64,000 bases of DNA. It comes from Candidatus Aceula meridiana (lineage in GTDB: Bacteria; Omnitrophota; Gorgyraeia; Zapsychrales; Aceulaceae). Shown one piece after another: positions 23,723 through 53,459 of the stretch. The notes below the pieces were generated by a model that saw only the letters and a program-made list of their open reading frames with translations, did no database searches and was not told the DNA's origin. A program made the position numbers and the translations under genes. The stretch covers positions 4,650 through 68,649 of the forward strand of contig JAVCDE010000031.1 of NCBI GenBank assembly GCA_030765185.1. The letters run 5' to 3'. Each line of letters begins with the position of its first letter. Positions within the stretch are counted from its first letter, which is position 1.

Positions 23723-23742
23723 TTTCTTCTTTTAAAAAACCC

Positions 23743-24158: not shown

Positions 24159-24180
24159 CCCGCACATAAAACGTGTCGGG
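24159..24180 (-). repeat. Bulged GC hairpin motif, copy 2 (CCCGCACAT-aaa-ACGTGTCGGG).
   Basis: It occupies the same position after the second amt stop. The ~100-bp amt-glnK intergenic segment is ~88% identical to the first. Confidence 0.5.
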
Positions 24181-24192
24181 ATAGTCTATATT

Positions 24193-27929: not shown

Positions 27930-28027
27930 GTCTTCTCCTTAATAAATATAGAGTGTATTCTATCATAAAATTTTAGGGAATAAAAATTTTTCTTCCCGCT
28001 CATTGCTTTTAGAGGTACAATGTTTTT

Positions 28028-28411
28028 ATGACATTCAAAGACGGTAAAAAAGAAATTCTCGTTATTGACGATGACCCGGTTCAAATTAAGCTTTTAGAAA
28101 AACGCCTACCGGAGAACGGATACGCTGTTCTAACGGCTACCAAAGCCGCTGAAGGGCTTCAAATGGCTATCGATAAACACCCTGACCTCATTGTTCTAGA
28201 TGTCATGATGCCTATCATCAACGGCTACAACCTTTGCCAACTTTTAAAAGCTGAAGAAAAACACAAAAATATCCCTGTGATTATGCTAACCTCACGTGAT
28301 AAAGAAAAGGATATTAAAATCGGCCATAATGTCGGTGCTGATGCTTACCTGATCAAACCCGTAGATGTGCCTATTTTGCTTCAGAAAATCGAAGAACTTC
28401 TAAGAAACTAA
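28028..28411 (+). CDS. Single-domain response regulator (CheY-like receiver).
   Basis: ILVIDDD...LIVLDVMMP...K motif set. Transcribed divergently from the ANTAR regulator. Confidence 0.85.
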   Translation: MTFKDGKKEILVIDDDPVQIKLLEKRLPENGYAVLTATKAAEGLQMAIDKHPDLIVLDVMMPIINGYNLCQLLKAEEKHKNIPVIMLTSRDKEKDIKIGHNVGADAYLIKPVDVPILLQKIEELLRN

Positions 28412-35327: not shown

Positions 35328-35879
35328 CTATTCCTCATCTACAAAGAGGGCATTAAGCTTTTGAAGGGTTTGAGGGCCTATTTTACCATCGACCTTGAGG
35401 TTGTTGGCTTCTTGAAAGGCTTTTACGGCTTCTTTGGTCTTCGGGCCTGTTTTGCCGTCAAGTTTGCCAGGATCAAAGCCTTGAGAAGATAATACTTCTT
35501 GAACAGTTAAAAGGTCAACTTCTCCTCTTTTAACAAGTCCTGTTTCCGTAAACACATTAAGTTCTCGCCATGTCGTTTTGCCCGCAAAGCGGCTGACCTT
35601 AAGGCCCTTAGCCTCTTGAAAGCCAGCTAAAGCATCACGCACTTTAGGCCCTAGCTTTCCGTCACTTTTTCCGCAACTAAACCCATGAATCCTCAAAAGC
35701 TTTTGAAGAAGTTCAACTTTCTCGTTATACTCATTAGGAATAACCTCTCCTAAAAGCGCCTTTTCCTGTGCGCCCTCTTTTTGTAAAATGCCATAAACAA
35801 AATCGCATCCGCTAAAACATACTAGCGAAAAAAAGCAAAATGATAATACAGCAAATAAGCAGAAGGTTGTTTTTTTCAT
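35328..35879 (-). CDS. Lipoprotein with two peptidoglycan-binding (PG_binding_1-like) repeats.
   Basis: Lipobox FSGC, and two ~55-aa repeats ...GFxxGKxDGKxGPKTxxAxxxFQ.... Confidence 0.65.
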   Translation of the reverse strand: MKKTTFCLFAVLSFCFFSLVCFSGCDFVYGILQKEGAQEKALLGEVIPNEYNEKVELLQKLLRIHGFSCGKSDGKLGPKVRDALAGFQEAKGLKVSRFAGKTTWRELNVFTETGLVKRGEVDLLTVQEVLSSQGFDPGKLDGKTGPKTKEAVKAFQEANNLKVDGKIGPQTLQKLNALFVDEE

Positions 35880-35947
35880 AATAGAAATAGCAAAGGCTCT
35901 TACAAAACCGGTAAGAGCCTTTCAAAAAACAATAAAATAAAAATATC

Positions 35948-36313
35948 TTAAGCCGTTAATTCCCGGATAGATTCTAAAATATATTTAAAATCGACTGTTT
36001 TAACTGTAAAGTCATCCGCTCCAACCTCTCTGGCACGACGGGCATCGACCGCCTCTAATTTTCCGGTATAAAGAATAATCTTAGAGAAATTATCGGTATC
36101 TTTGATTCTTTGGCACAATTCAAAACCATTTCCGTCAGGCAGCATAACATCCAAAATAATAACATCAGGCTTCTCTTGTTCAAAAAGCTTAAATCCCTCT
36201 TCGGCTAAAGAAGCTGAAACAACATTAAAGCCAGCGGCTTCTAAATTAGCTGTAAGAATTTTTTGAATATCCTCTTCATCTTCAATAATCAATATTTTCT
36301 TTTTTTCTCCCAT
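35948..36313 (-). CDS. Single-domain response regulator (receiver only).
   Basis: ILIIEDEED...VIILDVMLPDGNG. Confidence 0.8.
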   Translation of the reverse strand: MGEKKKILIIEDEEDIQKILTANLEAAGFNVVSASLAEEGFKLFEQEKPDVIILDVMLPDGNGFELCQRIKDTDNFSKIILYTGKLEAVDARRAREVGADDFTVKTVDFKYILESIRELTA

Positions 36314-36339: not shown

Positions 36340-36702
36340 TTAAAACTCTTTAATTTTCTCTAAAAGAGCATCATAGTCAAACGGCTTAAAAACATAGCCA
36401 TTTGCATTGACCTGTTCAACTCGTTCTTGAAAACCCTCAGATGGCGTACTGGCCGTTATAAACAACACCGGGATAGGTTTTAAATTCTCGTCAGCTTTAA
36501 TCTGAGAACAAATTTCATACCCATTTAATCCGGGCAATGTAATATCCAAAAGAACCAAGTCAAACTTTTCGGCTCGTACAATCTCCATAGCTTGATGGCC
36601 TTCTGAAGCTGTTTTAACTTCAAATCCATCTTTTTGCAAGCGAAAAATAATAACCTTTAGAATATCAGGTTCGTCGTCGACAACTAAAATTTTCTTAACC
36701 AT
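36340..36702 (-). CDS. Single-domain response regulator (receiver only).
   Basis: ILVVDDEPD...LVLLDITLPGLNG. Confidence 0.8.
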   Translation of the reverse strand: MVKKILVVDDEPDILKVIIFRLQKDGFEVKTASEGHQAMEIVRAEKFDLVLLDITLPGLNGYEICSQIKADENLKPIPVLFITASTPSEGFQERVEQVNANGYVFKPFDYDALLEKIKEF

Positions 36703-36717
36703 GGCGTTCCTCCTATT

Positions 36718-39700
36718 TTACGCTTCCTTTTTGCGTCTCTCTTCAATAGGCAAAATGAAAGAAAAAATGCTTCCTTCACCCTCTTTTGATTCAACCCAAA
36801 TTTTTCCGCCATGCTCTTCAACGATTTTTTTTGAAATGGCAAGGCCAAGGCCTGTTGACCCGGTTTTTCTTTCTTTTCCTTTTTTAAGCTGGCTGAATGT
36901 TTGAAATAATTTTGAAAAATCTTCTTCTTTGATACCGTCGCCTTGGTCAATCACGGAAACCTTGATCGTATTGCCTTCTTGACGTGCTTGAAGGGTGACA
37001 GGTTTCCCACTCGCATATTTAACCGCGTTACTTACAAGATTTGTAACAACCTGCGTAATGCGGTCATGATCAAAACCCACTTGAGGAAGATTTTCTTGAA
37101 TATCAGCTTTTAGCTCCACGTTTTCTTTTTTGGCAACTTTATCCATGGTCATAACAACTTCTTTAATCATAGGCGCAATGTCCTGATTTGCAAATTCAAA
37201 AGTCATCTGGCTTGTGTCCAATTTCTGAAAATCTAAAACATCATTAATAAGCCTCGCTAACCGTTCAACATTTCGCTTGGCAACATCTAAAAATTCTGCT
37301 TGTTCTTTATTCAGCTCCCCGGTAACGCCATCAGCAACAATAGAAATTCCTTCTTTAATAGCCGTTAACGGCGTGCGCAGTTCATGAGAGACAACAGAGA
37401 TAAATTCGCTTTTCATGCGCATGGCGTCTTTGGCTTTTTCTTCGGCCTCTTTGCGTGCCGTAATATCTTCTTTGACCGCAATATAATTAGTTGTTTTTCC
37501 GCTCTCATTGCGGATTGGAGAAATAGAAGCAAGTTCCCAATAGAGGTCGCCGTTTTTCTTTTTATTACAAAACTCTCCTCGCCACTCTTTGGCTTGTGTA
37601 ATCGTGTCCCACATATCTTTATAAAACTCTGGAGGCTGTTTATCCGATTTTAATACGCGGGGATTTTGCCCTAAGGCTTCTTCAAAGGTGTATCCGGTCA
37701 ATTGGCAAAATTTTGGATTCACGTACTCAATATTGCCATCAGGATCTGTGATAACAACTGTAGCCGGGCTTTGCTCAATAGCACTTGAAAGTTTTATTAG
37801 CTCGGCCTCGACTTCTTTTCTTTTTGTAATATTTTCCATTAAGCCAATGTTTGAAACGATGATCCCTTGTCCATCAAAATGAAGGACCCCTCTGTCATGA
37901 AACCAAAAATATTGGCCGTTCTTGTGGCGGAAGCGGTATTCAACATCAAAATTGCGTTTTTCGCTAATCGCTTTTTCTAGCTCCTCTTTGACTCTATCGA
38001 CGTCTTCAGGGTGACATTTTTCAAACCATTCGCCAGAACTATTCCCCATTTCATTCAAAGTATAGCCAATAACTTCTTGAAAATTTCCCATCCAGAGAAT
38101 CCTATCCTCAGAAAAATAGTGTTCGTAAACAATCTGACTAACAGCGCTAACCAGTGCTTCGTTTTTGCTCAAGGCCCGGGAAACAAACTCTTCAGCCTGT
38201 CGTCGCGCAGTAACATCCTCAAAGCTTTCAATCCCCTCAACAATGTTTCCGTTTGCGTCTTTTAAAACATCGGCGTTCTTTGAAATTATACGAATTTCCC
38301 CGTCTTTTCTTTTAATCTTACATTCTCGGCCTACAATAGGCTTCTGTATATTCTCATCGAAAAGCCCGCAAGAATCTTTGCAGGGATGATCGGCAAAAAG
38401 CGAACATTTCTTGCCGAGAACCTCTTCAGATTGATACCCGGTAAGTTCTTCAGCCTTTTTGTTCCACTGGGTAACTTTTTGGTCTTTATCAACAATAAAA
38501 ATCGCGCTTGGTGAAAGCTCAAAAACCCTTTCGGCAGATTCTTTCGACGTAACAATTTGCTGCTGTGATTCTTCTATTTTCTTTGTTTTAACCGCTAACT
38601 CTTCATAAAGAGCTTTAATCGCTTCGTTGGTTCTTTCCAGTCCCCAGGCTTTTTCTTTTAGCGCATCTTGGGCTTCCTTGAGCACTTTTTCTGCCCGTTT
38701 ATTCTCTGTGATATCACGGCCAAAAATAGAAGCGCCAATAATTTTTTTATTTTCTCCCCGAATCGGTGAAATGTTTAAAGAAACATCTATCATCTGCCCG
38801 TCTTTGCGTCGGCGAACAGTTTCATAGCTCTCAACAGACTCGCCATTTCTTGTTTTTTCTAAGAAATCTTCTGTCTCGTTTCGCTTATCTTCGGGAATGA
38901 TGATGTCAATGCGCTTACCTTTCACTTCTTTTTCTTTATAGCCATATATTTTTTCCGCTCCTCTGTTCCAGTTTAAAATGCGTCCGTCAAGCGTTTTTCC
39001 GATAATGGCGTCTTCCGACGAAGCAACAATCGCCGCCAAACGCCTTGCGTTTTCAGAAGATTTTTGAGTCATATAAATGATTACAATAAAAATCAAAATT
39101 AAAAGCTCTAAAAATAGCGTTAGCACAATGCCTAGCCATCGATAAATTATGACACGATCAGCCGAAGCTAAAAAAAGAATAGACCATTGATCCTCACTAA
39201 CAACGCTTTGATTGACAAAAAACTTTTTCCCATGAAAAACTATCTCGCTCTTATCCAAAATCTTTTGAATCCCCATAGACTTAAACGGTCCAGGACCAAA
39301 TTGTTGCGAGGAAGCAATTCTTTTTTGTATATCATCGTTTATCGGCCAAAGAGACTTTAAAACCCACTTAGGATGGCTTGATAGAAAAATAATTCCATCC
39401 GGGCTGACAAGATAGCAATGAGAAAACTTCACAAAGTCCTGCGCAAGAACATCTAGATCTCTTTTAATAACAGCAACACCGATGATTTCCTTTACTGAAT
39501 TCTTAACAGGATGGGAAACATAATATCCTCTTTTGCGGGAAGTAACCCCGTAAGCAAAATAACGGCCGGTTTTTCCTTCGATAGATTGCTGAAAATACGG
39601 CCTAAATTGATAATTTTTGCCAACAAAGCTATCAGGCTGATTACGATTTGAGGAAGCAATGGCTTCGCCTTTTAAATTAAGAATATAACAAATAGAGCTT

Positions 39701-40026
39701 GGTAGTGTCTCGGCATAACGGTCTAAAGCAATATTAATTTCTACTAAATCCTGCGCGTCGGGCAACTCAGCAATCTTTAATAGCCGAGGAGACCCAGACA
39801 ACAGCTTGCTAACACGCTCTGTGACGACTAAAATACGTTTCACGCTGCTTCCTAGGGCATGAAGATTCGCCTCTCCTTCGTCAAAAACTTCTTCTCTCGC
39901 ATACTCCGTCATTTTGGAGGTGACAAACCAGCCAGAGAAAAAAATGGCTATTACCGTAATAACATAAAAAATAACAAAGCGATTCGAAAGATATCCTTTT
40001 GTATGTGAAAAATTATTTTTTTTCAT
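36718..40026 (-). CDS. Multi-PAS sensor histidine kinase with an N-terminal periplasmic (Cache-like) domain.
   Basis: Two TM segments flank a ~270-aa extracytoplasmic domain, followed by about four PAS repeats, a HisKA H-box (SHELRTPL) and HATPase_c. Confidence 0.85.
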   Translation of the reverse strand: MKKNNFSHTKGYLSNRFVIFYVITVIAIFFSGWFVTSKMTEYAREEVFDEGEANLHALGSSVKRILVVTERVSKLLSGSPRLLKIAELPDAQDLVEINIALDRYAETLPSSICYILNLKGEAIASSNRNQPDSFVGKNYQFRPYFQQSIEGKTGRYFAYGVTSRKRGYYVSHPVKNSVKEIIGVAVIKRDLDVLAQDFVKFSHCYLVSPDGIIFLSSHPKWVLKSLWPINDDIQKRIASSQQFGPGPFKSMGIQKILDKSEIVFHGKKFFVNQSVVSEDQWSILFLASADRVIIYRWLGIVLTLFLELLILIFIVIIYMTQKSSENARRLAAIVASSEDAIIGKTLDGRILNWNRGAEKIYGYKEKEVKGKRIDIIIPEDKRNETEDFLEKTRNGESVESYETVRRRKDGQMIDVSLNISPIRGENKKIIGASIFGRDITENKRAEKVLKEAQDALKEKAWGLERTNEAIKALYEELAVKTKKIEESQQQIVTSKESAERVFELSPSAIFIVDKDQKVTQWNKKAEELTGYQSEEVLGKKCSLFADHPCKDSCGLFDENIQKPIVGRECKIKRKDGEIRIISKNADVLKDANGNIVEGIESFEDVTARRQAEEFVSRALSKNEALVSAVSQIVYEHYFSEDRILWMGNFQEVIGYTLNEMGNSSGEWFEKCHPEDVDRVKEELEKAISEKRNFDVEYRFRHKNGQYFWFHDRGVLHFDGQGIIVSNIGLMENITKRKEVEAELIKLSSAIEQSPATVVITDPDGNIEYVNPKFCQLTGYTFEEALGQNPRVLKSDKQPPEFYKDMWDTITQAKEWRGEFCNKKKNGDLYWELASISPIRNESGKTTNYIAVKEDITARKEAEEKAKDAMRMKSEFISVVSHELRTPLTAIKEGISIVADGVTGELNKEQAEFLDVAKRNVERLARLINDVLDFQKLDTSQMTFEFANQDIAPMIKEVVMTMDKVAKKENVELKADIQENLPQVGFDHDRITQVVTNLVSNAVKYASGKPVTLQARQEGNTIKVSVIDQGDGIKEEDFSKLFQTFSQLKKGKERKTGSTGLGLAISKKIVEEHGGKIWVESKEGEGSIFSFILPIEERRKKEA

Positions 40027-40604
40027 TTTTTAAAACTTTCTATGTAGGTTGCCTTCTTTTTTGACTTTCTTTCAACAAAAGGCGGCCCGCTTTTAAAATT
40101 CATACAAAGCCCTTTAAGGCCGTGTTCTTGCGGATTAGGGCAACAGACTTTCTTAACGCTACCGTCTTGCTGTAGCAAATAGCCACGCCCGCTAACCGGG
40201 CAAATTATTTTCTTGTGCAAAAATTTCTGAGTGTAAAGCTCGTCAAGATCTTCCGGGAATTTTTTATTTTCCGCATAATAAAGATCGATGGCCTTGCGGA
40301 TGTTCCAAAGCTTAAAGGCACATTCATTAACTTTATAATCAGTATTTTTAACGCCACCGGCAATCCAATAGTCCGGCTTATAAAATATTCGGCTTTCTTC
40401 AAGAAGAATAAAAATAAGCCGTAGACTTAACCCTGTAACGAGGAGAAAGCCTAAAAAAATAAAGGCCTGGCGGCCTTTTGTCATAACTTCTTTTTTGTTT
40501 TCTTCTTTCTGAATTCTTTTTTGTTCCTCAGACTCTTTTTGATCGTACTCTCCAAGGATGTCGTTTAGAGTTTCCTTTTTCTGAGGGTCTTGGGGGTCTA
40601 CCAT
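40023..40604 (-). CDS. Bitopic membrane protein with a charged N-tail and a Cys-rich periplasmic domain. There is a weak pseudopilin-like motif (AIDLYYAENKKFPEDLDEL).
   Basis: One TM helix and five Cys in the C-terminal 90 aa. No prepilin peptidase site. Translationally coupled to the kinase and the ATPase. Confidence 0.35.
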   Translation of the reverse strand: MVDPQDPQKKETLNDILGEYDQKESEEQKRIQKEENKKEVMTKGRQAFIFLGFLLVTGLSLRLIFILLEESRIFYKPDYWIAGGVKNTDYKVNECAFKLWNIRKAIDLYYAENKKFPEDLDELYTQKFLHKKIICPVSGRGYLLQQDGSVKKVCCPNPQEHGLKGLCMNFKSGPPFVERKSKKKATYIESFKK

Positions 40605-40608
40605 AAAA

Positions 40609-42816
40609 TTATTTCTTTCTTAAAAGCATTCTAACTCTTGCCAAAAGTTTATCACGATCAAACGGTTTATTGACGTAATCATCAGCGCCGGCGTCTAGGC
40701 CTTCAATTTCACTTGTTTTATCAGACTTGGCTGTGAGCATCACAATTGGGATAGACGCTGTCTCTAGGTGAGAACGTATCTTTTTTGTTGCCGTAACGCC
40801 ATCCATCTTGGGCATCATTACATCCATAATAATCAAGCTAGGTTTATCGCGGTAGGCCTTTTTAACGCCCTCTTCTCCGTCTTCTGCTTCAATAACATTA
40901 TATCCACAACTTTCAAAGCAGACTGTTAAGATGGTACGGATATCGGGTTCATCGTCTACAATAAGAACGGTATGCCGCTTGTTAACAGCCTTTCGTAATT
41001 CATTAGCAACCTCATTAACTTCTCTCGGGGAAGATTCCAAAGATGTCTTTTCGCCATCAGACCCTTTTGTTCCTTGATAGCTTTCTTTAGGCTGAATGTC
41101 AAAATCTATCTCCTGAATGCCGCAGACTCTTTCAACTTCCTCAATGGTCGTAACACCGCTTCTTGCTTTTTCACCACCTGCCTCAGCTAATGTACGAAAC
41201 CTTGATTCTCGGGCAGCTTTCATGATTTCATCTTCAGAGGCCTTTTCCGAAATAAGCTTCTTTACTTTTTCGCTTACCTTTAGTATCTCAAAAATTGCTG
41301 TCCTGTTTAAAAATCCTGTATAATTGCACGTCTCGCATCCAGCCCCTTTATAAAGTTTTTCAAGTTTATACCTTTGAATAAAAATCCCAAATTTCTCATG
41401 CATTTGCCTGACTTCTTGCGCGTCAGTAATTTCTTGCCGGCAGCCAGGACAAATAATGCGCACTAACCTCTGCGCCACAATCATGGCCAAAGAAGAGCCA
41501 ATGAGATACGGTTCTAGGCCTAAATCTAAAAGACGGATAACCGTGCTCACAGCGTTATTAGTATGCAGTGTTGAAAAAACTAAGTGGCCTGTCAAAGACG
41601 CCCGGAAGGCAATTTCAGCGGTTTCTAAATCACGAATTTCTCCGACTAAAATAACGTTCGGATCCTGGCGTAAAATGCTTTTTAACCCGCTTGCAAAAGT
41701 AACATTCTTTGCCGGATTAACAGGAATCTGGTTAATCCCTTCTGTCAAATATTCAATCGGGTCTTCAATGGTAACAATATTTTTTGTTTCGCTTTTAATA
41801 AATCCTAGCGCAGCATAAAGTGTAGATGTTTTTCCGGAGCCGGTCGGCCCTGTAACAAGCACCATCCCTTGAGGCTTTTGAATAGCCTCTTTAAAAGCTG
41901 ATAAGTCTCCTGGTTCCATGCCTAATTGTTCAATATATTTCTTTTCTTGGCTTTTGTCTAAAAGACGAATAACAATTTTTTCACCATGAAAAGTAGGAAT
42001 AATGGAAATACGTAAGTCAACTTTTCTTTCATGAATCAGAATAGAACAACGCCCGTCTTGGGGTGAGCGGGTTTCAGAAATATCTAAATCCGATAAAATC
42101 TTGATGCGCACGACCAAAGACGAATGCATCTTAACCGGAATTTTCATAATATTTTTCAGGTATCCATCAATGCGGTAGCGCACTTCAACAAAATCTTCAT
42201 AAGGCTCGATATGGATATCACTAGCGCGGGACTTAACAGCGTCGCTTAAAATAAGGTTAGCCAGCTTAACAACAGGCGAACGGTCCCCTTTAAGAACATC
42301 AGCATCTAAAAAACTTTGATCTTCTTTGCCTTCTTTGACAAGCTCAACCTTGGTATCGTCGACGATATTTTTCATAAGGTCATAGATGGAATCATCAACC
42401 AAATAATATTTATCAATACATTCAGCGATGTCGTTTTTTTTAGCTAAAACAGGGGTAACGCCCATCCCTGCAATCGCAGACAAATCATCTAAGACCGTAA
42501 CATCTTGGGGGTTACTCATCGCTAAAACAAGTTTGCCCTCTTGAACGCGCAAAGGAAATGCGCCATAGCGCTTAGCCTTGTCATATTGAACAAGCTTCAA
42601 TGCTTGGGAATCAATTTTTTCATTATCCAAAGATATCGCGGGTAGGTTAAAAACTTTTGAAGCGACACGCAGAAGGTCCTCTTCTTTTAGAAAATCCATC
42701 TCAACTAAAAGTTCATGAATGGGCTTTTGAGCCCCAATTTGCTTAGCCTCAGCATCTTGGAGATTGTCGAATGTGATTAATTTTTCTTTTAAAAGGGCTT
42801 CAATAAGTGTCGTCAT
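40609..42816 (-). CDS. GspE/PilB-family secretion ATPase fused to a C-terminal response-regulator receiver domain.
   Basis: T2SSE N-domain, Walker A GPTGSGKT, tetracysteine CPGC...CETC, then a ~120-aa receiver (LIVDDEPD...IIMDVMMPKMDG...K). Confidence 0.8.
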   Translation of the reverse strand: MTTLIEALLKEKLITFDNLQDAEAKQIGAQKPIHELLVEMDFLKEEDLLRVASKVFNLPAISLDNEKIDSQALKLVQYDKAKRYGAFPLRVQEGKLVLAMSNPQDVTVLDDLSAIAGMGVTPVLAKKNDIAECIDKYYLVDDSIYDLMKNIVDDTKVELVKEGKEDQSFLDADVLKGDRSPVVKLANLILSDAVKSRASDIHIEPYEDFVEVRYRIDGYLKNIMKIPVKMHSSLVVRIKILSDLDISETRSPQDGRCSILIHERKVDLRISIIPTFHGEKIVIRLLDKSQEKKYIEQLGMEPGDLSAFKEAIQKPQGMVLVTGPTGSGKTSTLYAALGFIKSETKNIVTIEDPIEYLTEGINQIPVNPAKNVTFASGLKSILRQDPNVILVGEIRDLETAEIAFRASLTGHLVFSTLHTNNAVSTVIRLLDLGLEPYLIGSSLAMIVAQRLVRIICPGCRQEITDAQEVRQMHEKFGIFIQRYKLEKLYKGAGCETCNYTGFLNRTAIFEILKVSEKVKKLISEKASEDEIMKAARESRFRTLAEAGGEKARSGVTTIEEVERVCGIQEIDFDIQPKESYQGTKGSDGEKTSLESSPREVNEVANELRKAVNKRHTVLIVDDEPDIRTILTVCFESCGYNVIEAEDGEEGVKKAYRDKPSLIIMDVMMPKMDGVTATKKIRSHLETASIPIVMLTAKSDKTSEIEGLDAGADDYVNKPFDRDKLLARVRMLLRKK

Positions 42817-42821
42817 AAATT

Positions 42822-43211
42822 CTATTCGGCTAAAATGTCTTTTATTTTTTCAATCAAAGCTTGAATTTCATAAGGTTTCTCAAAATAAGCAGAAACCCCT
42901 TGCTGGCTTATTGTTTCTTTTAGCACCTTGTCCTGCGCTGCTGTTGAAATAATTATAGGAATATCCTTAGTGTGTGCAGAAAGTCTTAAATTCTTCAAAG
43001 CGGTAACCCCGCCGCCCCCGGGAAGCCTCAAGTCTAAAATAATGATATCCGGTCTTTTATCGTGGGCAACTTGCGTTGCCTGAAAAGTGTCTAAAGCCGA
43101 CATTACCTCAAAATTATACTCCTGAAGCCTTCTTTCCAGAATTTGTAAAAAATCTAAATCATCTTCAACAATAAGTACTTTATGCATACACATCTTCCCC
43201 GTTTGCCCCAT
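42822..43211 (-). CDS. Single-domain response regulator. The true start is probably the internal ATG at ~43187-43193.
   Basis: VLIVEDD...IIILDLRLPGGGG. The listed N-terminus overlaps the predicted -10. Confidence 0.75.
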   Translation of the reverse strand: MGQTGKMCMHKVLIVEDDLDFLQILERRLQEYNFEVMSALDTFQATQVAHDKRPDIIILDLRLPGGGGVTALKNLRLSAHTKDIPIIISTAAQDKVLKETISQQGVSAYFEKPYEIQALIEKIKDILAE

Positions 43212-43237
43212 TTTACCTCGAAAACTAGGGTTTGCAA
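43210..43237 (-). promoter_or_regulatory. Sigma70-like promoter TTGCAA-16-TAAAAT for the signalling operon.
   Basis: Hexamers read on the minus strand 57 bp downstream of the malQ stop. Confidence 0.35.
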
Positions 43238-43268: not shown

Positions 43269-44762
43269 TTAACGATGAGTACTTTTGCAAAGAGAGGCTA
43301 GGCTGCTTTCAAGCTCTGGGGTAAGCTGTGAGTCAAGAACTCTCCATTGCCAATTGTTCTGCATGGTTGATGGCGTGTTCATGCGGTGGGCAGCATCAAG
43401 ACCTAAGGCATCCTGCAGAGGAAAAATAGCCGTGTCTGCCACGGACTTCATTGCAAGGGTAACCATCTGCCAGTGAATTTGTTCAGGCTGTGCGGTCTCG
43501 CCCAAACATTCTTCAATCCGCGTCTTCATCTCTTCGGAAACTTCCTGCTTAAACCAGCCTTGGGTTGTGTTGTTATCATGTGTGCCGGTATAAACCAAAC
43601 AATTCTTAATGTAATTCTGCGGTAAATAAGGATTGTCCTCTTTGCCGTCAAAAGCAAAAGCCAGAATTTTCATGCCGGGAAAATCATATTTCTTGATAAT
43701 TTCTTTAACGCCATCAGTTATAACACCTAAATCTTCGGCAATAATCGGAAATGTCTTAAAATGCGCTATCAGCTCCTCAAAGAAATCTTCCACCGGAACT
43801 TTAACCCACTGCCCCTTAATGGCGGTCTTCTCTCCCTGCGGAACCTCCCAAAAAGCCACAAACCCGCGAAAGTGGTCAATTCGCACAATGTCAAAAAAAT
43901 TAAAATTCTGAGCTAGGCGCTCTTTCCACCATTGATAGCGCTCCTTTTTAAGAGCATCCCACCGATAAACCGGATTGCCCCAGAGCTGACCGGTTTCACT
44001 AAAATAATCAGGAGGAACTCCTGCCATCCCCAAAGGGTTTCCTGCCTTATCAATTTTAAAAATATGCTGATGCGTCCAAACATCGGCACTGTCATGCTGA
44101 ACATAAAAAGGTAAATCTCCAATAATCTGGATGCCCTTGTTATTGCAATATTGCTTTAATGTAAACCATTGTTTCAGAAATAAGAATTGAAAGAATTTTT
44201 CACGCAAAATAACATCATCCAATTCTTGGCGGCATTTCTCTAAAGCCTGCTGATCGCGATTGCGAATTTCTTCAGGCCAATTCACCCAAGATGCCCCTGC
44301 AAAATGCTTCTTAAGAGCTGCGAACACCGCGTAATCCTCAAGCCAGAATTTATTCTTCTCTTGAAATGTTTTAAAGTCTGCATCCCTAAGAATATTCTTT
44401 TTAGAATTGGCAAACGCTTTATGCAAAAGCGCTGTCTTGTGAAGAGCAGCTTTGTGATAATCAACTCGCCCCTCTGAGAACTTAGGTAAATTTTCAAGAT
44501 CACTTTTCTGTAAAAAACCATCTTTTAGCAAAATTTCGGGACTGATAAATAGCGTGTTGCCGGCAAAGGCTGAGCAACTGCTGTAAGGAGAACTGGCAAG
44601 GGCTAAGTCCGTCAGATTAAGAGGAAGAATTTGCCAATATTTCTGACCGCTCTTTTTTAAAAAATCAGCAAACCGATAAGCACCTTTGCCAAAATCCCCT
44701 ATTCCGTAGGGGGAAGGCAAGGACGTGATATGCAAAAGGATTCCGCTTGCACGTTTTTTCAT
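43269..44762 (-). CDS. malQ: 4-alpha-glucanotransferase (amylomaltase, GH77).
   Basis: The N-terminus RASGILLHITSLPSPYGIGDFG is a classical MalQ start. Confidence 0.85.
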   Translation of the reverse strand: MKKRASGILLHITSLPSPYGIGDFGKGAYRFADFLKKSGQKYWQILPLNLTDLALASSPYSSCSAFAGNTLFISPEILLKDGFLQKSDLENLPKFSEGRVDYHKAALHKTALLHKAFANSKKNILRDADFKTFQEKNKFWLEDYAVFAALKKHFAGASWVNWPEEIRNRDQQALEKCRQELDDVILREKFFQFLFLKQWFTLKQYCNNKGIQIIGDLPFYVQHDSADVWTHQHIFKIDKAGNPLGMAGVPPDYFSETGQLWGNPVYRWDALKKERYQWWKERLAQNFNFFDIVRIDHFRGFVAFWEVPQGEKTAIKGQWVKVPVEDFFEELIAHFKTFPIIAEDLGVITDGVKEIIKKYDFPGMKILAFAFDGKEDNPYLPQNYIKNCLVYTGTHDNNTTQGWFKQEVSEEMKTRIEECLGETAQPEQIHWQMVTLAMKSVADTAIFPLQDALGLDAAHRMNTPSTMQNNWQWRVLDSQLTPELESSLASLCKSTHR

Positions 44763-47236
44763 TTTTCTCCTATTCCAACTCTAAGAAAATCAGCCAAAAG
44801 GCCAAAAGCCGCAACCCACCTTTGACAACGGCTATCCCCTTGCTCAGACTTTGCTTTTCTTTCGTTGAAAAATTGTTTTTTAAGTTCGAAACAAATATTT
44901 TGCGCACGCCACAAATCTAAACTAAAACCTAAGTAATCTAAATTCTCTAAAAGAGCGGCCACCGTTTCCATAAGGATAACGTCCTCAGGATTTTCTCTTA
45001 AAGCGCCCATCAAATGGTCGATTCTTTTTTCGGTTGCAAAACAAATTGTTTCTTTGTCTCGCGAAAACGACCATCGTTTAAGCTCCCAAATTAAAAGACG
45101 AATTTGCTTCATGTCAAGGGGGTGCTTCTCGATCTCATCGCACAAATCGCGATTGAGAACAAATTCAACCACGGTCGAGAGTGCCTTAGGAAGCGTGACA
45201 TGTAGTTCTTTTTGAACCTGCATCAAAGGATAATGCTTGTCATAAATCTGGCGGAAGGAACCTTCAATTTCTTCCATTGTTGTTTTTAAAACTTCGTTTA
45301 AGATTTTTTGCTGTTCATTTCTAAAAAGATCTTGGATAGAATAGTTTTGCGGCCCAAAATATCTTTCAATCAGCCTCGTTGTCTCGGGGATACGCTTTGC
45401 AACAAAAGCCTCTAAAATTTCTTTTTCAGCCTGCTCATAGGTCCCCTCTTTCATCTGATCAACACCTCTGATGATATTATGATTCCCCAAGTGCATCCCG
45501 ACGAAAAACACAGGGGTTTTATCTAGCGTGATGTCAGAGCGCACCCATCCTTTACCAATAGAAAGCTTAAGCCTGTCTTTTTCTTGCTTACGATAAGTTT
45601 CAGTTCTTACCGTATAGCAATAAATCCTATTCTCCTGAGGATATTCTTCGAAAAGAGAAGAAACAGCATAATGAGCTCCAACTCTTAAAAGGCCAACGGC
45701 AGAAGGCTTCACAGCCGTTCGATAAATATATTCTCCGTCTTTGTATTCGGGAACATTACTTTTTGCTTTCTTCAGCTGTTCTGAAAATTTCTGATCAAAA
45801 TTAGTCCCGTCAATAAATTCTATAAGTTGAATAACGCGCGCAGCATATTTTAGAATTTGAGTCGGCTCAATCCCTGAAATTTCATCAAAAAACCATCCGC
45901 AGCTTGTATACATCAACATGCTGTTCCGCTGCATCTCTAAAAGTTTTAAAAATTTAATCTTATTAGCCTCAGGAACCTGCGAAAGATGATTCTCCTTAAA
46001 AAAACGCTCAATTGTTTCAGTATTTCGATTTAAAACAACATCGATATAGCAGTCTCTGACAGCCCAAATGTCCTTGGCATACAAAGGCATTTCTTTTTCG
46101 TAGGTTTTGTTTGCTTGCTCAGACAACCAATCAAGGCTTTGACGCAAGGGCTTGCGCCACTTCTGATTCCATTTAGGGTTTATTCCAATTTTGCATCCGC
46201 AGTCGCTTCGCCAGCGCTCAACGCCATGCGAACAACTCCAAGACGTATTTTCAAGAATCTCAACTTCTTCATTCGGAGGAAATTTCTCCAAATATTCGCC
46301 GTAAATCGTTACCGTAGCTAATTCGTTAGATTCAATATGTCGAAGGCAATAAGCAAGAGCCATGTCTGCAAATTTATGATGATGTCCGTATGTTTCACCG
46401 TCTGTAGCGATATGTATCATCTGAGCATCTTTTAATTTCGGATCAAACGCATCCACAAGCCTTTTAGCAAAAAAAGCGCCATCCTTCAGAAGTCTTTCAA
46501 ATGCAACAGCTTGGGATATTGGCCCATCGTAAAAGAAAAGAGAAATGCTTCTGCCTGAGGGCAAGCGGCACAAGTACGGTCTTTTAGGGTCAATTTTTTG
46601 CCCTGAAACATCAATCCACTTTTTATCAGAAAACTTTTTGACCCTCTTCGCTTGATGCGGGGCGAGAACAGTAAACTTAATTCCATGTTCGGCCATGATA
46701 TCAAGGCTCTCAAGGTCAACGGCAGTCTCGGCAAGCCACATGCCTTCTGGTCTTCGTTTAAAACGATATTCGAAATCTTTAATGCCCCAAATAATTTGCG
46801 TGCGCTTATCCTGGGCGTTCGCCAAAGGCATAATCATGTGGTTATAAACCTGCGCGATGGCAGCGCCATGTCCTGAAAAATTTTTTTGGCTAAGCCTGTC
46901 AGCTTCTAAAATCGCTTGATAGGCTTGTGTGTCGTGGGTCTCCATCCAAGAAAGAAGCGTTGGCCCAAAATTAAAACTTATCTTAGAGTAATTATTAACG
47001 ATATCGACAATTTTTTTGTCCCCGCCTAAAATGCGGGCAGCTGCATTACGCGAATAGCATTCGTGCGATATGCGCTCATTCCAATCGTGATAAGGATAGG
47101 CACTGTCCTGAAGCTCAATGGCCTCAAGCCAAGGGTTTTCTCGAGGAGGCTGGTAAAAATGTCCGTGGATGCAGATGTAGCGGTCCAAAAAATCTCCTTT
47201 ATATAAAACGACTCTGATTAAGAGTTGATAAGCCAA
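44759..47236 (-). CDS. GH57 family alpha-glucan-active enzyme (alpha-amylase/branching-enzyme-like) with a C-terminal extension.
   Basis: The N-terminus HGHFYQPPRENPW is typical of GH57. 825 aa. Confidence 0.7.
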   Translation of the reverse strand: MAYQLLIRVVLYKGDFLDRYICIHGHFYQPPRENPWLEAIELQDSAYPYHDWNERISHECYSRNAAARILGGDKKIVDIVNNYSKISFNFGPTLLSWMETHDTQAYQAILEADRLSQKNFSGHGAAIAQVYNHMIMPLANAQDKRTQIIWGIKDFEYRFKRRPEGMWLAETAVDLESLDIMAEHGIKFTVLAPHQAKRVKKFSDKKWIDVSGQKIDPKRPYLCRLPSGRSISLFFYDGPISQAVAFERLLKDGAFFAKRLVDAFDPKLKDAQMIHIATDGETYGHHHKFADMALAYCLRHIESNELATVTIYGEYLEKFPPNEEVEILENTSWSCSHGVERWRSDCGCKIGINPKWNQKWRKPLRQSLDWLSEQANKTYEKEMPLYAKDIWAVRDCYIDVVLNRNTETIERFFKENHLSQVPEANKIKFLKLLEMQRNSMLMYTSCGWFFDEISGIEPTQILKYAARVIQLIEFIDGTNFDQKFSEQLKKAKSNVPEYKDGEYIYRTAVKPSAVGLLRVGAHYAVSSLFEEYPQENRIYCYTVRTETYRKQEKDRLKLSIGKGWVRSDITLDKTPVFFVGMHLGNHNIIRGVDQMKEGTYEQAEKEILEAFVAKRIPETTRLIERYFGPQNYSIQDLFRNEQQKILNEVLKTTMEEIEGSFRQIYDKHYPLMQVQKELHVTLPKALSTVVEFVLNRDLCDEIEKHPLDMKQIRLLIWELKRWSFSRDKETICFATEKRIDHLMGALRENPEDVILMETVAALLENLDYLGFSLDLWRAQNICFELKKQFFNERKAKSEQGDSRCQRWVAAFGLLADFLRVGIGEK

Positions 47237-47299
47237 ACGACCACTTCGTTATCTTTGAATTATCTCTAGATTGAGTGGTCGTTAAAAAAATAAAAAATT

Positions 47300-47617
47300 T
47301 TATTTTTTAGCCTTGGCTATTTTCTTGGCTTTTTTTCTTTCTGTGCTTAGGCTTGGTTGAAAAACATTACGATAATAGTTTCGTTCCGGTTCAACCAAAG
47401 AAACAAAATCTTGTTTTTTACGCGAAATATAATTAATTTTATCTTCGCGGGCTAACCATCCTAAAGCTTGAAAAACAACCTCGCCTTTTTCTTTAACAAG
47501 CTTGGCAAGGTCTGTTACCTTAACTTCTTCTTTTTCGCCTAAAACCTGCCAGGTTTTTCCTGCGGCTTCAATAATTTTTCCTTTCATCTCTTCCTCCTTA
47601 TTAAAATTTCTCTCCAT
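47300..47617 (-). CDS. Small hypothetical protein, possibly winged-helix.
   Basis: The ORF is there, but no family was recognised. Confidence 0.35.
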   Translation of the reverse strand: MERNFNKEEEMKGKIIEAAGKTWQVLGEKEEVKVTDLAKLVKEKGEVVFQALGWLAREDKINYISRKKQDFVSLVEPERNYYRNVFQPSLSTERKKAKKIAKAKK

Positions 47618-47703
47618 GCTTGCGATTTCATTGAGACACTATTTTTATATCAAAAACCTGTTTTCGTCAAGTAAATTTGTTGTGCCAAAACTTTTTAAAA
47701 GCC

Positions 47704-49629
47704 TTAAGTCTTCTTGAAAAATAAAACGCCTAAGGGTGGCAAAGTCAAAGACAAAGATTGCGCAAAACCATGGGCTCCAATATGTTCTGTCTCTTTCCCG
47801 CCCATGTTTCCTTGTCCGCTCCCCCCGTAGCTTTTTGAATCGCTGTTAACTAATTCCTTCCAATGCCCTTCATCCGGGACACCAACGCGGTAACCGTTAC
47901 GTGTCTGCGGCGTAAAATTGCAAACAACAACAATTTTTTCTTCCGGCTTTTCGTTATGGCGCATAAAGCTGATGACTCCCTGCTGCCAATCGCTTCCGTC
48001 GATCCACTGTAAACCACGCGGCTCAAAATCGTGCGCGTATAAAGCTTTTTCCTCACGATAAACATGATTTAAATCTTTCATCCATTGATGCAGTCCTTGA
48101 TGCGGCGCATATTGCAGAAGATGCCATTCAAGGCTCTGGTCGTGATTCCATTCTGCCCATTGACCAAGCTCAGCGCCCATAAACAATAATTTTTTCCCGG
48201 GATGAGCAAACATGTATCCCAACAATAGACGCATATTTGCAAATTTTTGCCAATCATCTCCCGGCATTTTTTCTAAAAGAGAGCCTTTGCCATGCACAAC
48301 CTCGTCGTGAGAAAGAGAAAGAACAAAATTCTCTGTAAACGTGTAAAGAAAACTAAATGTTAAATCGCTATGATGGTATTTTCGGTAAATTGGATTCTTA
48401 GAAAAATACACAAGGGTGTCATGCATCCATCCCATATTCCACTTCATGCCAAACCCCAAGCCGCCTTCATAAAGTGGACGTGAAACACCTTGCCAGGCTG
48501 TCGACTCCTCTGCAATCATCTGAACGTCAGAAAACTCTTTATACACAACACTGTTTAGTATTTTTAAAAATTCAATCGACTCGAGATTTTCCCGTCCACC
48601 AAAACGATTGGGAATCCATTGCCCGGCTTCTCTTGAATAATCCAAGTAAAGCATCGAAGCTACTGCATCGACTCGAATTCCGTCGATATGATACTTATCA
48701 AACCAAAAAAGTGCGCTTGAAATTAAGAATGCTTTAACTTCATTGCGGCCATGGTCAAAGATATAACTTTTCCAGTCAGGATGAAATCCTTTTTTCGGAT
48801 CAGCATGCTCATAAAGATGCGTTCCGTCAAACTTAAAAAGTCCATGAACATCCGACGGAAAATGTGAAGGCACCCAATCTAAAATAACTCCAATATTATT
48901 TTGATGAAGACGGTCAATAAGATACATAAAATCTTGCGGGCTTCCATAGCGCGAAGTTGGCGAAAAATAGCCAACAGTCTGATATCCCCAAGATCCATAA
49001 AAAGGATGTTCCGTAATAGGAAGAAGCTCCACGTGTGTATATCCCATTTCCTTAACATAATCAACAAGCTGATCAGCCAACTCCGAATATGTTAAAGAAC
49101 GATTAGAGTCTTCTGGAACACGCCGCCAAGATCCAAGGTGCACCTCGTAAATCGACATTGGCGACTGAAGGCTGTTTCTTGTATGCCTCTCCTCCATCCA
49201 CTTAGAATCTTTCCATGGATACTCTGTATCCCAAACAATGGAAGCAGTCTTAGGTGGGATTTCATTATAAAATGCAAAAGGATCTTTTTTGTCTTCCCGA
49301 TAACCGTTTTCTTTAGATTCAACATAATATTTATAAGCTGTGCCTTTGCCAATGCCGGGAATAAAACCTTCCCAGATTCCTGAAGAATCCCAGCGAACGC
49401 CCAAAGGATGCGAGCCCTTATTCCACCCGTTGAAGTCTCCCATCACGCAAACACGCTCAGCATTTGGAGCCCAGACAGCAAAAGAGACTCCTTCTTTCCC
49501 ATCAACTGTCATGGGGCAGGAGCCTAGTTTATCATAAAGCCGGAAATGAGTTCCCTCTTTAAAAAGGTAGGAATCTTGATCTGTAAATCGAGTAACGCCG
49601 TGGACGATGTTGCCGTTATTGAATTTCAT
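47704..49629 (-). CDS. glgB: 1,4-alpha-glucan branching enzyme (GH13).
   Basis: CBM48 plus GH13 catalytic motifs (GFRVDAV-like [14 protein letters not shown]). Confidence 0.9.
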
Positions 49630-53063: not shown

Positions 53064-53459
53064 TCAAGGAGTCTGGGGTGTTTCTTTATAACCCTCTTTA
53101 ATCAACTGGCGCACCGCTTCGGTGATACGCTTTTGATCCTGTGGCGAAATACTAGAAAATTCAATACCCGTATCATAGACAACTTCTTTAGGTTGTTTCT
53201 TGGATTGAGTTTTCACAGACCAAACAACTTTTCCTTTACCCTTGATATTCTTTTCCATGTCTAAAAGGTCTAACTCTAAATCCGTTTCAGCAAAAAGCTT
53301 AATGTGTCGCTTAAAAATAATACAAAGGCCTCCAGTTCCAATATTTTCTGTATGTGTTAAAACAGCGTCTATGTCTTGTCCTTCTTGACGAACAGTCACC
53401 AAGCAAGGATAATTAACGCGTGGGAATTGCCTTCTTTCTAACCCCTTCCAATCTACCAT
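53064..53459 (-). CDS. PilZ-domain protein (putative c-di-GMP receptor).
   Basis: RRQFPR (RxxxR) and NIGTGG (D/NxSxxG-like) motifs. Confidence 0.5.
   Translation of the reverse strand: MVDWKGLERRQFPRVNYPCLVTVRQEGQDIDAVLTHTENIGTGGLCIIFKRHIKLFAETDLELDLLDMEKNIKGKGKVVWSVKTQSKKQPKEVVYDTGIEFSSISPQDQKRITEAVRQLIKEGYKETPQTP

What the first reader, a model, noticed from the sequence alone, without database searches (positions are those of the whole stretch)
36340..43237. Operon combining a multi-PAS sensor kinase, three receiver-only regulators, a Cys-rich bitopic protein and a GspE/PilB ATPase carrying a C-terminal receiver domain.
The genes at 42822, 40609, 40023, 36718 and 36340 are separated by gaps of 0-25 bp or overlap, downstream of a TTGCAA-16-TAAAAT promoter. 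A further receiver gene at 35948 and a peptidoglycan-binding lipoprotein gene at 35328 follow. The ATPase has a complete T2SSE N-domain, Walker A motif and the tetracysteine zinc motif, followed by a full receiver domain with conserved phospho-acceptor context. That puts a secretion or pilus motor under direct phosphorylation control. No GspF-like platform, prepilin peptidase or secretin gene is adjacent. The Cys-rich partner has only a weak pseudopilin-like motif. This points to an uncharacterised phospho-regulated ATPase module rather than a canonical T2SS or T4P.
Basis: partly seen in the sequence, partly recalled or inferred. Interest (0 to 1): 0.7.

Follow-up and report, generated by a model that had tools for sequence, protein, structure and literature searches.

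The report
Receiver-fused PilB pilus motor cassette
An uncultured Omnitrophota bacterium encodes a type IV pilus assembly ATPase (PilB) fused to a two-component receiver domain and placed inside a sensor-kinase operon; this conserved but unstudied arrangement would let an outside signal switch a pilus motor directly by phosphorylation.

The parts
43210..43237 (-). Promoter-like site TTGCAA-16-TAAAAT upstream of the first receiver gene
   Evidence: Read and listed (9 of 12 consensus positions). This is weak: the region has 30 such sites against 18 expected by chance, and the promoter consensus of Omnitrophota is unknown.
42822..43211 (-). Stand-alone receiver (REC-up). The likely true start is the ATG at 43187, giving 121 aa.
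   Evidence: Response_reg 2e-22. D/D/S-T/K align with CheY. Orthologues sit directly upstream of PilB-REC in L001, L004 and L005 at 41-51% identity. A receiver-only gene sits directly upstream in 8 of 11 loci.
40609..42816 (-). PilB-REC: type IV pilus assembly-type ATPase with a C-terminal receiver (735 aa)
   Evidence: Pfam MshEN + T2SSE + Response_reg. NCBIfam PilB TIGR02538 scores 611 bits over aa 4-564. The best PDB sequence matches are Geobacter PilB 5zfr/5tsg. At least 120 clusters share the same architecture. The family is monophyletic.
42394..42816 (-). MshEN (N1) domain of PilB-REC with degenerate c-di-GMP motifs
   Evidence: Pfam MshEN covers aa 56-141. The RLGxxLLxxGLLxxxxLxxxLxxQ motif is found in 0 of 120 family members, with R and G replaced in both copies.
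41128..42285 (-). T2SSE ATPase core (N2 + CTD) with Walker A, Asp box, Walker B, His box and tetracysteine
   Evidence: Pfam T2SSE covers aa 178-563. Invariant columns G323-T330, E351/D352/E355, G392/E393/R395/D396, H411/H418 and C456/C459/C494/C497.
40981..41127 (-). Variable, low-complexity linker of about 50 aa between ATPase and receiver
   Evidence: This is the only poorly aligned, length-variable block in alignment A1.
40612..40980 (-). C-terminal OmpR/PhoB-type receiver domain of PilB-REC; phospho-acceptor D665
   Evidence: Response_reg 3e-32. D621, D622, E623, D665, T695, Y714 and K717-P718 are invariant in 20 relatives. The best solved relative is the B. subtilis PhoP receiver 1mvo. 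It aligns to CheY.
40023..40604 (-). Bitopic protein: conserved cytoplasmic N-terminus, one transmembrane helix, periplasmic pseudopilin-fold domain with conserved Cys
36718..40026 (-). Membrane sensor histidine kinase: TM, periplasmic dCache-like domain, TM, 4x PAS, HisKA, HATPase_c (1102 aa); no receiver domain
   Evidence: Pfam. Its start overlaps the upstream stop by 4 nt. Orthologous kinases sit in the same position in L001 and L002.
36340..36702 (-). Stand-alone receiver (REC-d1)
   Evidence: Response_reg 6e-29. Catalytic residues are intact. Orthologues occur in L001, L002, L005 and L006 at 44-62% identity.
35948..36313 (-). Stand-alone receiver (REC-d2), last gene of the operon
   Evidence: Response_reg 1e-25. 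Catalytic residues are intact, with K followed by T rather than P. Orthologues occur in L001 and L002 at 63-69% identity.
35892..35922 (-). Terminator-like hairpin (12-bp stem plus T-rich tail) closing the operon
35328..35879 (-). Neighbouring protein with two PG_binding_1 domains and an N-terminal hydrophobic signal-like segment ending in a Cys; link to the module uncertain
Evidence: PG_binding_1 5e-30. It is syntenic only in the close relatives L001-L003, is not seen in the held part of L094, and lies beyond the hairpin.

Best explanation
This is a two-component signalling operon whose output is a motor protein rather than a transcription factor. The membrane kinase (periplasmic dCache-like domain, four cytoplasmic PAS domains) senses one or more signals and autophosphorylates on the HisKA histidine. 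It then passes the phosphoryl group to receiver domains. One of these is fused by a flexible linker of about 50 residues to the C-terminus of a full-length PilB-type hexameric assembly ATPase. Phosphorylation of D665 in this OmpR/PhoB-type receiver changes the ATPase's activity, oligomeric state or recruitment to the membrane platform. The most plausible routes are receiver dimerisation between neighbouring subunits or release of an inhibitory contact. This gates assembly of a type IV filament (pilus or pseudopilus). The two or three stand-alone receivers compete for the same phosphoryl groups and act as sinks or modulators, as PilH and PixH do. The bitopic pseudopilin-fold protein encoded right after the ATPase probably couples the ATPase to the periplasmic filament side. 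The platform protein, secretin and most pilins are supplied from elsewhere in the genome. Shown: gene order, domain content, intact catalytic residues, conservation, monophyly, linkage to kinase, receiver and pilin-like genes, and the pseudopilin fold. Inferred: who phosphorylates whom, what phosphorylation does to the ATPase, which filament is built, and the role of the bitopic protein.
For: The architecture and motifs are intact. At least 120 clusters carry the same three domains at 50-100% identity, nearly all named Omnitrophota. The family forms a single clade: the largest distance from the window protein to any of the 40 sampled fused members is 0.44, against at least 0.57 to the 84 canonical PilB proteins. 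In 11 loci (window, L094, L001, L002/3, L004, L005, L006, L087, L088, L089, L093) a HisKA/HATPase_c kinase lies within about three genes. A receiver-only gene lies directly upstream in 8 of them. The 10 loci with Pfam annotation show no T2SSF, PilM, PilT or secretin gene. The receivers fall into conserved orthology groups: upstream, d1, d2 and fused. No DNA-binding output is encoded in the window operon. A prepilin gene with the N_methyl motif (27.3 bits, above the 21.2 cutoff) and the pseudopilin-fold protein sit inside the cassette in relatives. The pseudopilin fold of the window protein is shown. The MshEN c-di-GMP motif is absent in 0 of 120 members, so the receiver is the only evident regulatory input. 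Precedent for receivers acting on PilB in trans: phosphorylated PixG binds PilB1, with PixH as a phosphate sink (PMC11181946). Independent REC fusions to PilB-like ATPases occur in Actinobacteria (L044, L057).
Against: There is no experimental data of any kind, and all members come from uncultured organisms. No platform, secretin or peptidase gene is linked in any locus, so the machine it serves is unknown. The score for the PilB equivalog model is below its cutoff (611 vs 675.65). A second PilB+PilC locus is reported in the same species (Williams 2021 supplement), so this paralogue may not drive the main pilus. Four receivers share one kinase, so the fused one need not be the preferred substrate. 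The kinase differs in the closest relative (L094), which argues against a fixed kinase-ATPase pairing. The long flexible linker gives no structural clue to how the receiver acts on the ring.
Confidence: 0.6

Rival explanations
1. PilB-REC, the bitopic pseudopilin-fold protein and the adjacent prepilin form a separate, signal-gated pseudopilus or secretion module of their own. This module is distinct from the organism's main type IV pilus and borrows at most a platform protein.
For: The bitopic gene follows PilB-REC in 7 of 7 loci, and a prepilin gene follows in 5 of them. The fused family is a distinct clade about 40% identical to canonical PilB. A canonical PilB+PilC locus exists elsewhere in the species. 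Canonical secretin-PilB-PilC-prepilin clusters without REC fusion exist in other Omnitrophota (L019, L007, L015).
Against: Only 4 of 11 full-length cassettes carry the bitopic gene, and the window and L094 lack the prepilin. No T2SSF platform is ever linked, and no type IV filament system is known to work without one (established knowledge).
Confidence: 0.2
2. The protein is mainly a signalling component, and filament assembly is not its job. Either the receiver acts as a phosphate sink or scaffold, or the ATPase drives some other process, for example one tied to the neighbouring glycogen genes.
For: Glycogen genes lie directly upstream in the window, L094, L001, L002/3 and L087, and in L002 the GH77 stop overlaps the PilB-REC start. 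No machinery genes are linked.
Against: The glycogen linkage is absent in L004, L005, L006, L088, L089 and L093. Every ATPase, zinc-site and N-domain feature of a working PilB is invariant. Pilin-type genes are embedded in the cassette in relatives.
Confidence: 0.1
3. The fusion is an artefact: an assembly chimera or a frameshift joining pilB to a downstream receiver gene.
For: None found.
Against: The same single ORF occurs in at least 120 clusters from NCBI, JGI, ENA and Logan assemblies, on contigs up to 418 kb. The ORF runs uninterrupted for 735 codons. The protein is 100% identical to a GenBank MAG protein.
Confidence: 0.01

Closest known systems
PilB, the type IVa pilus extension ATPase (Geobacter metallireducens 5TSG/5ZFR, Myxococcus xanthus 3JC8)
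   Same: Residues 4-565 align end to end (E about 1e-136). It has the MshEN/N1 domain, N2 domain, CTD, Walker A and B, Asp and His boxes and the tetracysteine zinc site.
   Different: It carries an extra linker of about 50 aa plus a receiver domain at the C-terminus. It is not encoded next to pilC, pilT or pilM. It forms its own clade about 40% identical to canonical PilB. It scores below the NCBIfam PilB equivalog cutoff.
Receiver proteins that act on PilB in trans: Synechocystis Tax1 PixG/PixH and P. aeruginosa Pil-Chp PilG/PilH
   Same: A kinase phosphorylates several receivers. One targets the extension ATPase and another acts as a sink (PMC11181946). Here too several receiver-only proteins accompany the ATPase.
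   Different: Those systems use CheA-type kinases, chemoreceptors and separate regulator proteins (PixG acts through a PATAN domain). Here the kinase is a classical HisKA sensor kinase and one receiver is covalently fused to the ATPase.
MshE/PilB regulation by c-di-GMP through the MshEN domain (PMC5013675)
   Same: It has the same N-terminal MshEN fold family. The concept is the same: a small-molecule signal acts directly on the assembly ATPase.
   Different: Both 24-residue c-di-GMP motifs are degenerate in all 120 family members examined. Input appears to have moved to phosphorylation of a C-terminal receiver.
NtrC/NtrC1/DctD-type response regulators (receiver controlling assembly of a ring ATPase); comparison from general knowledge, not tested here
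   Same: A receiver is fused to an oligomeric P-loop ATPase whose ring assembly or activity can be gated by phosphorylation.
   Different: The ATPase superfamily differs (AAA+ sigma-54 activator vs the PilB/GspE secretion ATPase). The domain order is reversed and there is no DNA-binding domain.
GspG/EpsG major pseudopilin (V. cholerae 4LW9), compared with the 193-aa bitopic protein
   Different: It has no class III signal peptide or N-methylation motif. It has a conserved cytoplasmic extension of about 45 aa (LxxIxxDYxxxE) before the membrane helix. It gives no T2SSG or N_methyl Pfam hit. It is therefore unlikely to be cleaved and polymerised like a pilin.

Membership tests
PilB/GspE secretion ATPase superfamily (Pfam T2SSE PF00437) | Match to the family model above its cutoff | tested here: met
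   444.9 bits vs cutoff 24.9, aa 178-563
PilB/GspE secretion ATPase superfamily (Pfam T2SSE PF00437) | Walker A, Asp box, Walker B and His box | tested here: met
   GPTGSGKT 323-330, E351/D352/E355, G392/E393/R395/D396 and H411/H418 are invariant in 20 relatives
PilB/GspE secretion ATPase superfamily (Pfam T2SSE PF00437) | Tetracysteine zinc-binding motif in the CTD | tested here: met
   C456, C459, C494 and C497 are invariant
Type IV-A pilus assembly ATPase PilB (NCBIfam TIGR02538 equivalog) | Score at or above the curated equivalog cutoff | tested here: not met
   611.4 bits vs cutoff 675.65, although the match is full length (4-564 of 2-561/564)
Type IV-A pilus assembly ATPase PilB (NCBIfam TIGR02538 equivalog) | Encoded with pilC/pilT/pilM-Q or other pilus machinery genes | tested here: not met
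   None in the 64-kb window and none in the 10 Pfam-annotated related loci
Type IV-A pilus assembly ATPase PilB (NCBIfam TIGR02538 equivalog) | Drives pilin polymerisation through PilC | not testable with these tools
   Needs genetics or biochemistry
Type II secretion ATPase GspE (NCBIfam TIGR02533) | Score at or above the curated cutoff | tested here: not met
   552 bits vs cutoff 630.25
Two-component receiver domain (Pfam Response_reg PF00072) | Acidic pocket, phospho-acceptor Asp, Thr/Ser, Lys and aromatic switch residue | tested here: met
   D621, D622, E623, D665, T695, Y714 and K717 are invariant in the family. They align with CheY D13, D57, T87 and K109, as do the stand-alone receivers.
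Two-component receiver domain (Pfam Response_reg PF00072) | Is phosphorylated by a cognate histidine kinase | not testable with these tools
   Only genetic linkage to a HisKA kinase was shown: 11 of 11 loci
OmpR/PhoB-family response regulator | Receiver plus C-terminal winged-helix DNA-binding domain | tested here: not met
   The receiver is closest to PhoP/PhoB/RpaB receivers, but there is no Trans_reg_C domain and the protein ends at the receiver
c-di-GMP-binding MshEN domain (Wang et al. 2016) | Two RLGxxLLxxGLLxxxxLxxxLxxQ motifs separated by 5 residues | tested here: not met
   0 of 120 family members match a strict or loosened motif; the Arg and Gly positions are replaced in both copies
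Type IV pilin / pseudopilin (for the 193-aa protein) | Class III signal peptide with N-methylation motif (G/A-F-T-L-I/V-E) | tested here: not met
   No N_methyl hit. The region before the membrane helix is not conserved as a cleavage site.
Type IV pilin / pseudopilin (for the 193-aa protein) | Alpha-beta pilin fold of the globular domain | tested here: met

The most novel reading that the evidence does not exclude
PilB-REC, the non-cleavable pseudopilin-fold membrane protein and (in relatives) a dedicated prepilin make up a previously unrecognised, phosphorylation-triggered type IV filament module of Omnitrophota. In it a fused receiver takes the regulatory place that c-di-GMP binding has in MshE-type ATPases. 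The bitopic protein is a new kind of adaptor that links the cytoplasmic motor to the periplasmic filament. Sensor kinases are swapped freely to tune when these mostly ultra-small, possibly host-dependent cells deploy the filament.
Probability: 0.2. Interest if true: 0.75.

Novelty: new variant of a known kind. Interest (0 to 1): 0.55.

Why it matters
How signalling proteins switch the PilB motor on and off is still argued over in the model systems (Pil-Chp, Frz, cyanobacterial Tax), where the regulators act in trans and transiently. A natural, conserved covalent fusion of a receiver to PilB acts as a Rosetta-stone case. It says that direct receiver-to-ATPase control is a selected solution. It also offers a single polypeptide in which the effect of phosphorylation on a PilB hexamer could be measured and imaged. 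For Omnitrophota, type IV pili are the proposed means of attachment to host cells (PMC10066038). A widespread sensor-gated pilus ATPase would therefore be a candidate switch for that lifestyle. The associated bitopic family of about 180 aa is an unannotated protein family with a clear genomic partner.

Tried and rejected
It returned mostly canonical PilB at 38-43% identity instead of close relatives. It was still useful as an outgroup set and for canonical Omnitrophota clusters, but it could not show which genomes hold both paralogues. (2) Metagenome scans with the bitopic-family alignments failed twice for lack of a conserved stretch. The third attempt gave one locus. (3) The word-indexed homologue search found only 2 relatives of the bitopic protein, which wrongly suggested an orphan. 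The exhaustive HMMER search found 81. (4) The first AF2 model from 2 sequences was poor (pLDDT 66), and its Foldseek search against the PDB was not significant. It was replaced by the 36-sequence model. (5) The afdb50 fold library was unavailable. (6) Pfam on all 36 family members and a PDB profile search gave nothing for the bitopic family. (7) I considered that loss of the c-di-GMP motif is specific to the fused clade. I rejected this as a strong argument, because most of the 84 canonical PilB sampled also lack it. (8) I considered a functional tie to glycogen metabolism. The synteny is lineage-restricted (4-5 of 11 loci), so I treat it as unproven. (9) I considered that the PG-binding protein belongs to the operon. 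A terminator-like hairpin and narrow synteny argue against it. (10) I compared the 112-aa Cys-rich ORF in L005 with the bitopic protein; they are unrelated. (11) Literature searches for the fusion under several names returned nothing relevant.

Full report
**What is in the window.** The 64-kb window is about 40% G+C and almost all genes lie on the minus strand. The protein at 40609-42816 is 100% identical to a GenBank protein of a Candidatus Aceula meridiana MAG (Omnitrophota). That species was described from Ace Lake, Antarctica (PMC8542988).

In transcription order they are:
- REC, 42822-43211
- a 735-aa ATPase, 40609-42816
- a 193-aa protein, 40023-40604
- a 1102-aa kinase, 36718-40026
- REC, 36340-36702
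- REC, 35948-36313
- a PG_binding_1 protein, 35328-35879

The spacings are 5, 4, -4, 15, 26 and 68 nt. A 12-bp-stem, T-tailed hairpin lies at 35922-35892, right after the last REC. I therefore take the operon to end there and the PG-binding gene to be a separate unit.

The proposed promoter TTGCAA-16-TAAAAT is really there. It is only a 9-of-12 match in a region where such matches are common (30 found vs 18 expected). Its -10 hexamer overlaps the annotated ATG. The first REC therefore more likely starts at the ATG at 43187, which is preceded by GGGGAAG. That start gives 121 aa, the length of its orthologues.

**Domains and motifs.** Pfam finds MshEN, T2SSE (2e-133) and Response_reg (3e-32) in the 735-aa protein. 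It finds four PAS domains, HisKA and HATPase_c in the kinase, plus a sub-threshold dCache_1 hit between two hydrophobic segments. It finds Response_reg alone in the three small proteins.

The ATPase part matches the NCBIfam PilB model over its whole length but below the equivalog cutoff (611 vs 675.65). It also falls below the GspE cutoff. Its best solved relatives are Geobacter and Myxococcus PilB, aligned over residues 4-565.

In an alignment of 20 family members at 52-69% identity to the window protein, several features are invariant:
- Walker A, the Asp box, Walker B, the His box and the four zinc-site cysteines
- the receiver residues D621, D622, E623, D665, T695, Y714 and K717-P718

The receiver is closest to PhoP/PhoB-type receivers. 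An alignment with E. coli CheY puts D13, D57, T87 and K109 in register in the fused receiver and in every stand-alone receiver of the window.

**The fusion is real and forms a family.** The 120 best database clusters all carry the same three Pfam domains. They are 50-100% identical over the full length and come from four independent data sources, on contigs up to 418 kb. Nearly all named ones are Omnitrophota. One is labelled Firestonebacteria and one Elusimicrobia.

I built a neighbour-joining tree of the ATPase part alone, with 40 fused proteins and 84 canonical PilB proteins from a species-level genome scan. The fused proteins form one clade with no intruders. Two Actinobacteria proteins have other arrangements: MshEN-T2SSE-zinc ribbon-REC in L044 and MshEN x3-REC-T2SSE in L057. 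Both fall outside that clade. Receiver fusion to PilB-like ATPases has therefore arisen more than once.

**Neighbourhoods.** I examined 11 loci with several kilobases of flank:
- the window
- L094 (88% identical ATPase)
- L001 (Aceula lacicola)
- L002/L003
- L004, L005 and L006
- L087, L088 and L089
- L093

Three patterns hold:
- Every locus has a HisKA/HATPase_c kinase within about three genes.
- Eight loci have a receiver-only gene directly upstream, and most have one to three more downstream.
- None of the 10 loci with Pfam annotation has a T2SSF platform, PilM, PilT or secretin gene.

The small receivers fall into orthology groups that track position: upstream, first downstream and second downstream. 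The fused receiver is its own group.

The kinase is not constant. The closest relative, L094, has a Phosphonate-bd/PAS protein plus a dCache_3-HAMP kinase in place of the window's dCache/4xPAS kinase. The stable core is REC, PilB-REC and some sensor kinase, while the input is exchangeable.

The window operon encodes no DNA-binding output. One relative, L087, does have a small REC-HTH_8 gene.

**Where the rest of the machinery is.** No platform, prepilin, peptidase or secretin gene exists anywhere in the 64 kb. The window otherwise holds nitrogen assimilation, pyrimidine, glycogen/trehalose, tRNA synthetase and RNase Y genes. A six-frame motif search finds no prepilin leader.

Other Omnitrophota genomes carry ordinary clusters:
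- secretin-PilB-PilC-three prepilins (L019)
- REC-PilB-PilC-pilin-REC (L007)
- PilB-PilB-PilC (L015)

Their unfused ATPases are 40-42% identical to PilB-REC.

The supplementary table of Williams et al. 2021 lists an F-type ATPase cluster for the A. meridiana MAG on another contig. [quoted passage not shown] No ATP synthase genes occur in this window, so that is a second locus. Seymour et al. 2023 report type IVa pilus clusters in most Omnitrophota, often next to such ATPases (PMC10066038). PilB-REC is thus best seen as an extra, differently regulated paralogue.

**The Cys-rich protein.** It has no Pfam or NCBIfam hit. The word-indexed search found only one relative. An exhaustive HMMER search of 1.84 billion representatives found 81 relatives, 40 of them below 1e-10, and almost all 175-190 aa long.

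The alignment of 36 members shows, in order:
- a conserved cytoplasmic N-terminal motif (LxxIxxDYxxxE)
- a charged stretch
- one membrane helix
- a periplasmic domain with invariant W100, P117, C135, C155 and P175, and the pattern EC..LWxIRxAxDxYYA..KxFP...CPxSG..Y...CPNPxxHG...GPPxIER

There is no class III signal peptide. The protein is a pseudopilin-fold domain held in the membrane by an uncleaved anchor with a conserved cytoplasmic tail.

Its gene directly follows PilB-REC in all 7 loci where I could look: the window, L094, L088, L090, L091, L092 and L093. In 5 of them a gene with a real prepilin leader follows, with the N_methyl motif above its cutoff. Only 4 of the 11 full cassettes have the bitopic gene, so it is an accessory of part of the family.

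**Regulatory input.** The published c-di-GMP-binding signature of MshEN (two RLGxxLLxxGLLxxxxLxxxLxxQ motifs; PMC5013675) is absent from all 120 family members, with the Arg and Gly positions replaced. Most canonical PilB proteins sampled also lack it. This does not set the family apart, but it leaves the receiver as the only visible input.

**Mechanism proposed.** The kinase senses a signal, autophosphorylates and transfers the phosphoryl group to the receivers. Phosphorylation of D665 on the tethered OmpR/PhoB-type receiver alters the activity, assembly or recruitment of the PilB hexamer. The free receivers compete as sinks or modulators. The bitopic protein links the motor and the periplasmic filament side. 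Platform and secretin are supplied from elsewhere.

The closest working analogues are two. One is the receivers that act on PilB in trans: phosphorylated PixG binding PilB1, with PixH as a sink (PMC11181946). The other, from general knowledge, is the NtrC-type receivers that gate assembly of a ring ATPase.

Everything beyond gene order, domains, conservation and fold is inference.

**Rivals.**
- A self-contained pseudopilus module (0.2) is favoured by the embedded pilin-type genes. It is weakened by the absence of any platform gene and by the patchy presence of those genes.
- A non-filament signalling role, perhaps tied to the glycogen genes that lie upstream in the window, L094, L001, L002/3 and L087, is possible but not favoured (0.1). 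That synteny is lineage-limited and all motor features are conserved.
- An artefact is excluded.

**Novelty.** Databases hold these proteins under generic names such as 'type II/IV secretion system protein' and 'response regulator'. Searches of 8 million full texts for the fusion under several names found nothing. The MshEN paper mentions REC-MshEN regulators but not this architecture.

I rate this a new variant of a known kind. The components and logic are familiar, but the wiring is undescribed and widespread in a poorly known phylum, and it comes with a new accessory protein family. Interest is 0.55.

Noticed in passing
window 43269-49629 (GH77 MalQ, GH57/DUF3536, GlgB); also L094, L001, L002/L003, L087: Glycogen-metabolism genes lie directly upstream of the PilB-REC cassette in several lineages. 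In L002 the GH77 stop codon overlaps the PilB-REC start by 4 nt, and in the window only 57 nt separate MalQ from the first REC. Co-transcription or co-regulation of carbon storage with this module is possible.
   Followed up: partly
L094 9617-13265 versus window 36718-40026: The closest relative (PilB-REC 88% identical) has a different sensor: a Phosphonate-bd/PAS protein plus a dCache_3-HAMP kinase instead of the dCache/4xPAS kinase. Sensor kinases seem to be swapped within an otherwise constant cassette.
   Followed up: partly
L044 1828-4284 (Mycobacteriales MAG); L057 1727-5002 (Rubrobacter MAG): Independent receiver fusions to PilB-like ATPases have other layouts: MshEN-T2SSE-double zinc ribbon-REC and MshEN x3-REC-T2SSE. 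Both fall outside the Omnitrophota clade.
   Followed up: partly
L007 10515-14878 (Omnitrophota MAG): A canonical cluster reads REC - unfused PilB - PilC - prepilin - REC. A receiver-only gene directly upstream of an unfused PilB looks like the split version of the fused arrangement.
   Followed up: partly
proteins P0050, P0057, P0063 (alignment A1 columns 1-48): Some family members, including the one labelled Firestonebacteria, carry an extra N-terminal segment of about 45 aa with two CxxC pairs, which looks like a zinc ribbon, ahead of the MshEN domain.
   Followed up: no
window 38371-38508 (kinase aa 507-552): The second PAS region of the kinase contains a Cys-rich stretch (KKCSLFADHPCKDSCGLF...GRECK) and hits Pfam Diguanyl_cycl_sensor (PF24820). 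It may be a cofactor- or redox-sensing site.
   Followed up: no
window 53064-53459: A stand-alone PilZ-domain protein (131 aa) is encoded next to YmdB and RNase Y. c-di-GMP signalling is thus present in the genome, even though the PilB-REC MshEN motifs are degenerate.
   Followed up: no
window 26688-28411; also L002 20647-22175: A GAF-GAF-ANTAR protein and a divergently oriented receiver-only gene form a conserved pair a few kilobases downstream of the cassette. This is probably an RNA-level antitermination two-component output.
   Followed up: no
window 21629-25584: There are two tandem amtB-glnB (ammonium transporter plus P-II) pairs. They sit beside type III glutamine synthetase, glutamate synthase, NAD synthase and carbamoyl-phosphate synthase genes, forming a large nitrogen-assimilation block.
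   Followed up: no
window 59120-60412: A 430-aa ORF between the two phenylalanyl-tRNA synthetase subunit genes has no Pfam hit at E<1e-4.
   Followed up: no
L005 13722-14060: A 112-aa Cys-rich ORF with no membrane segment and no Pfam family lies between the PAS protein and the dCache kinase of another PilB-REC cassette. It is unrelated to the bitopic family.
   Followed up: partly
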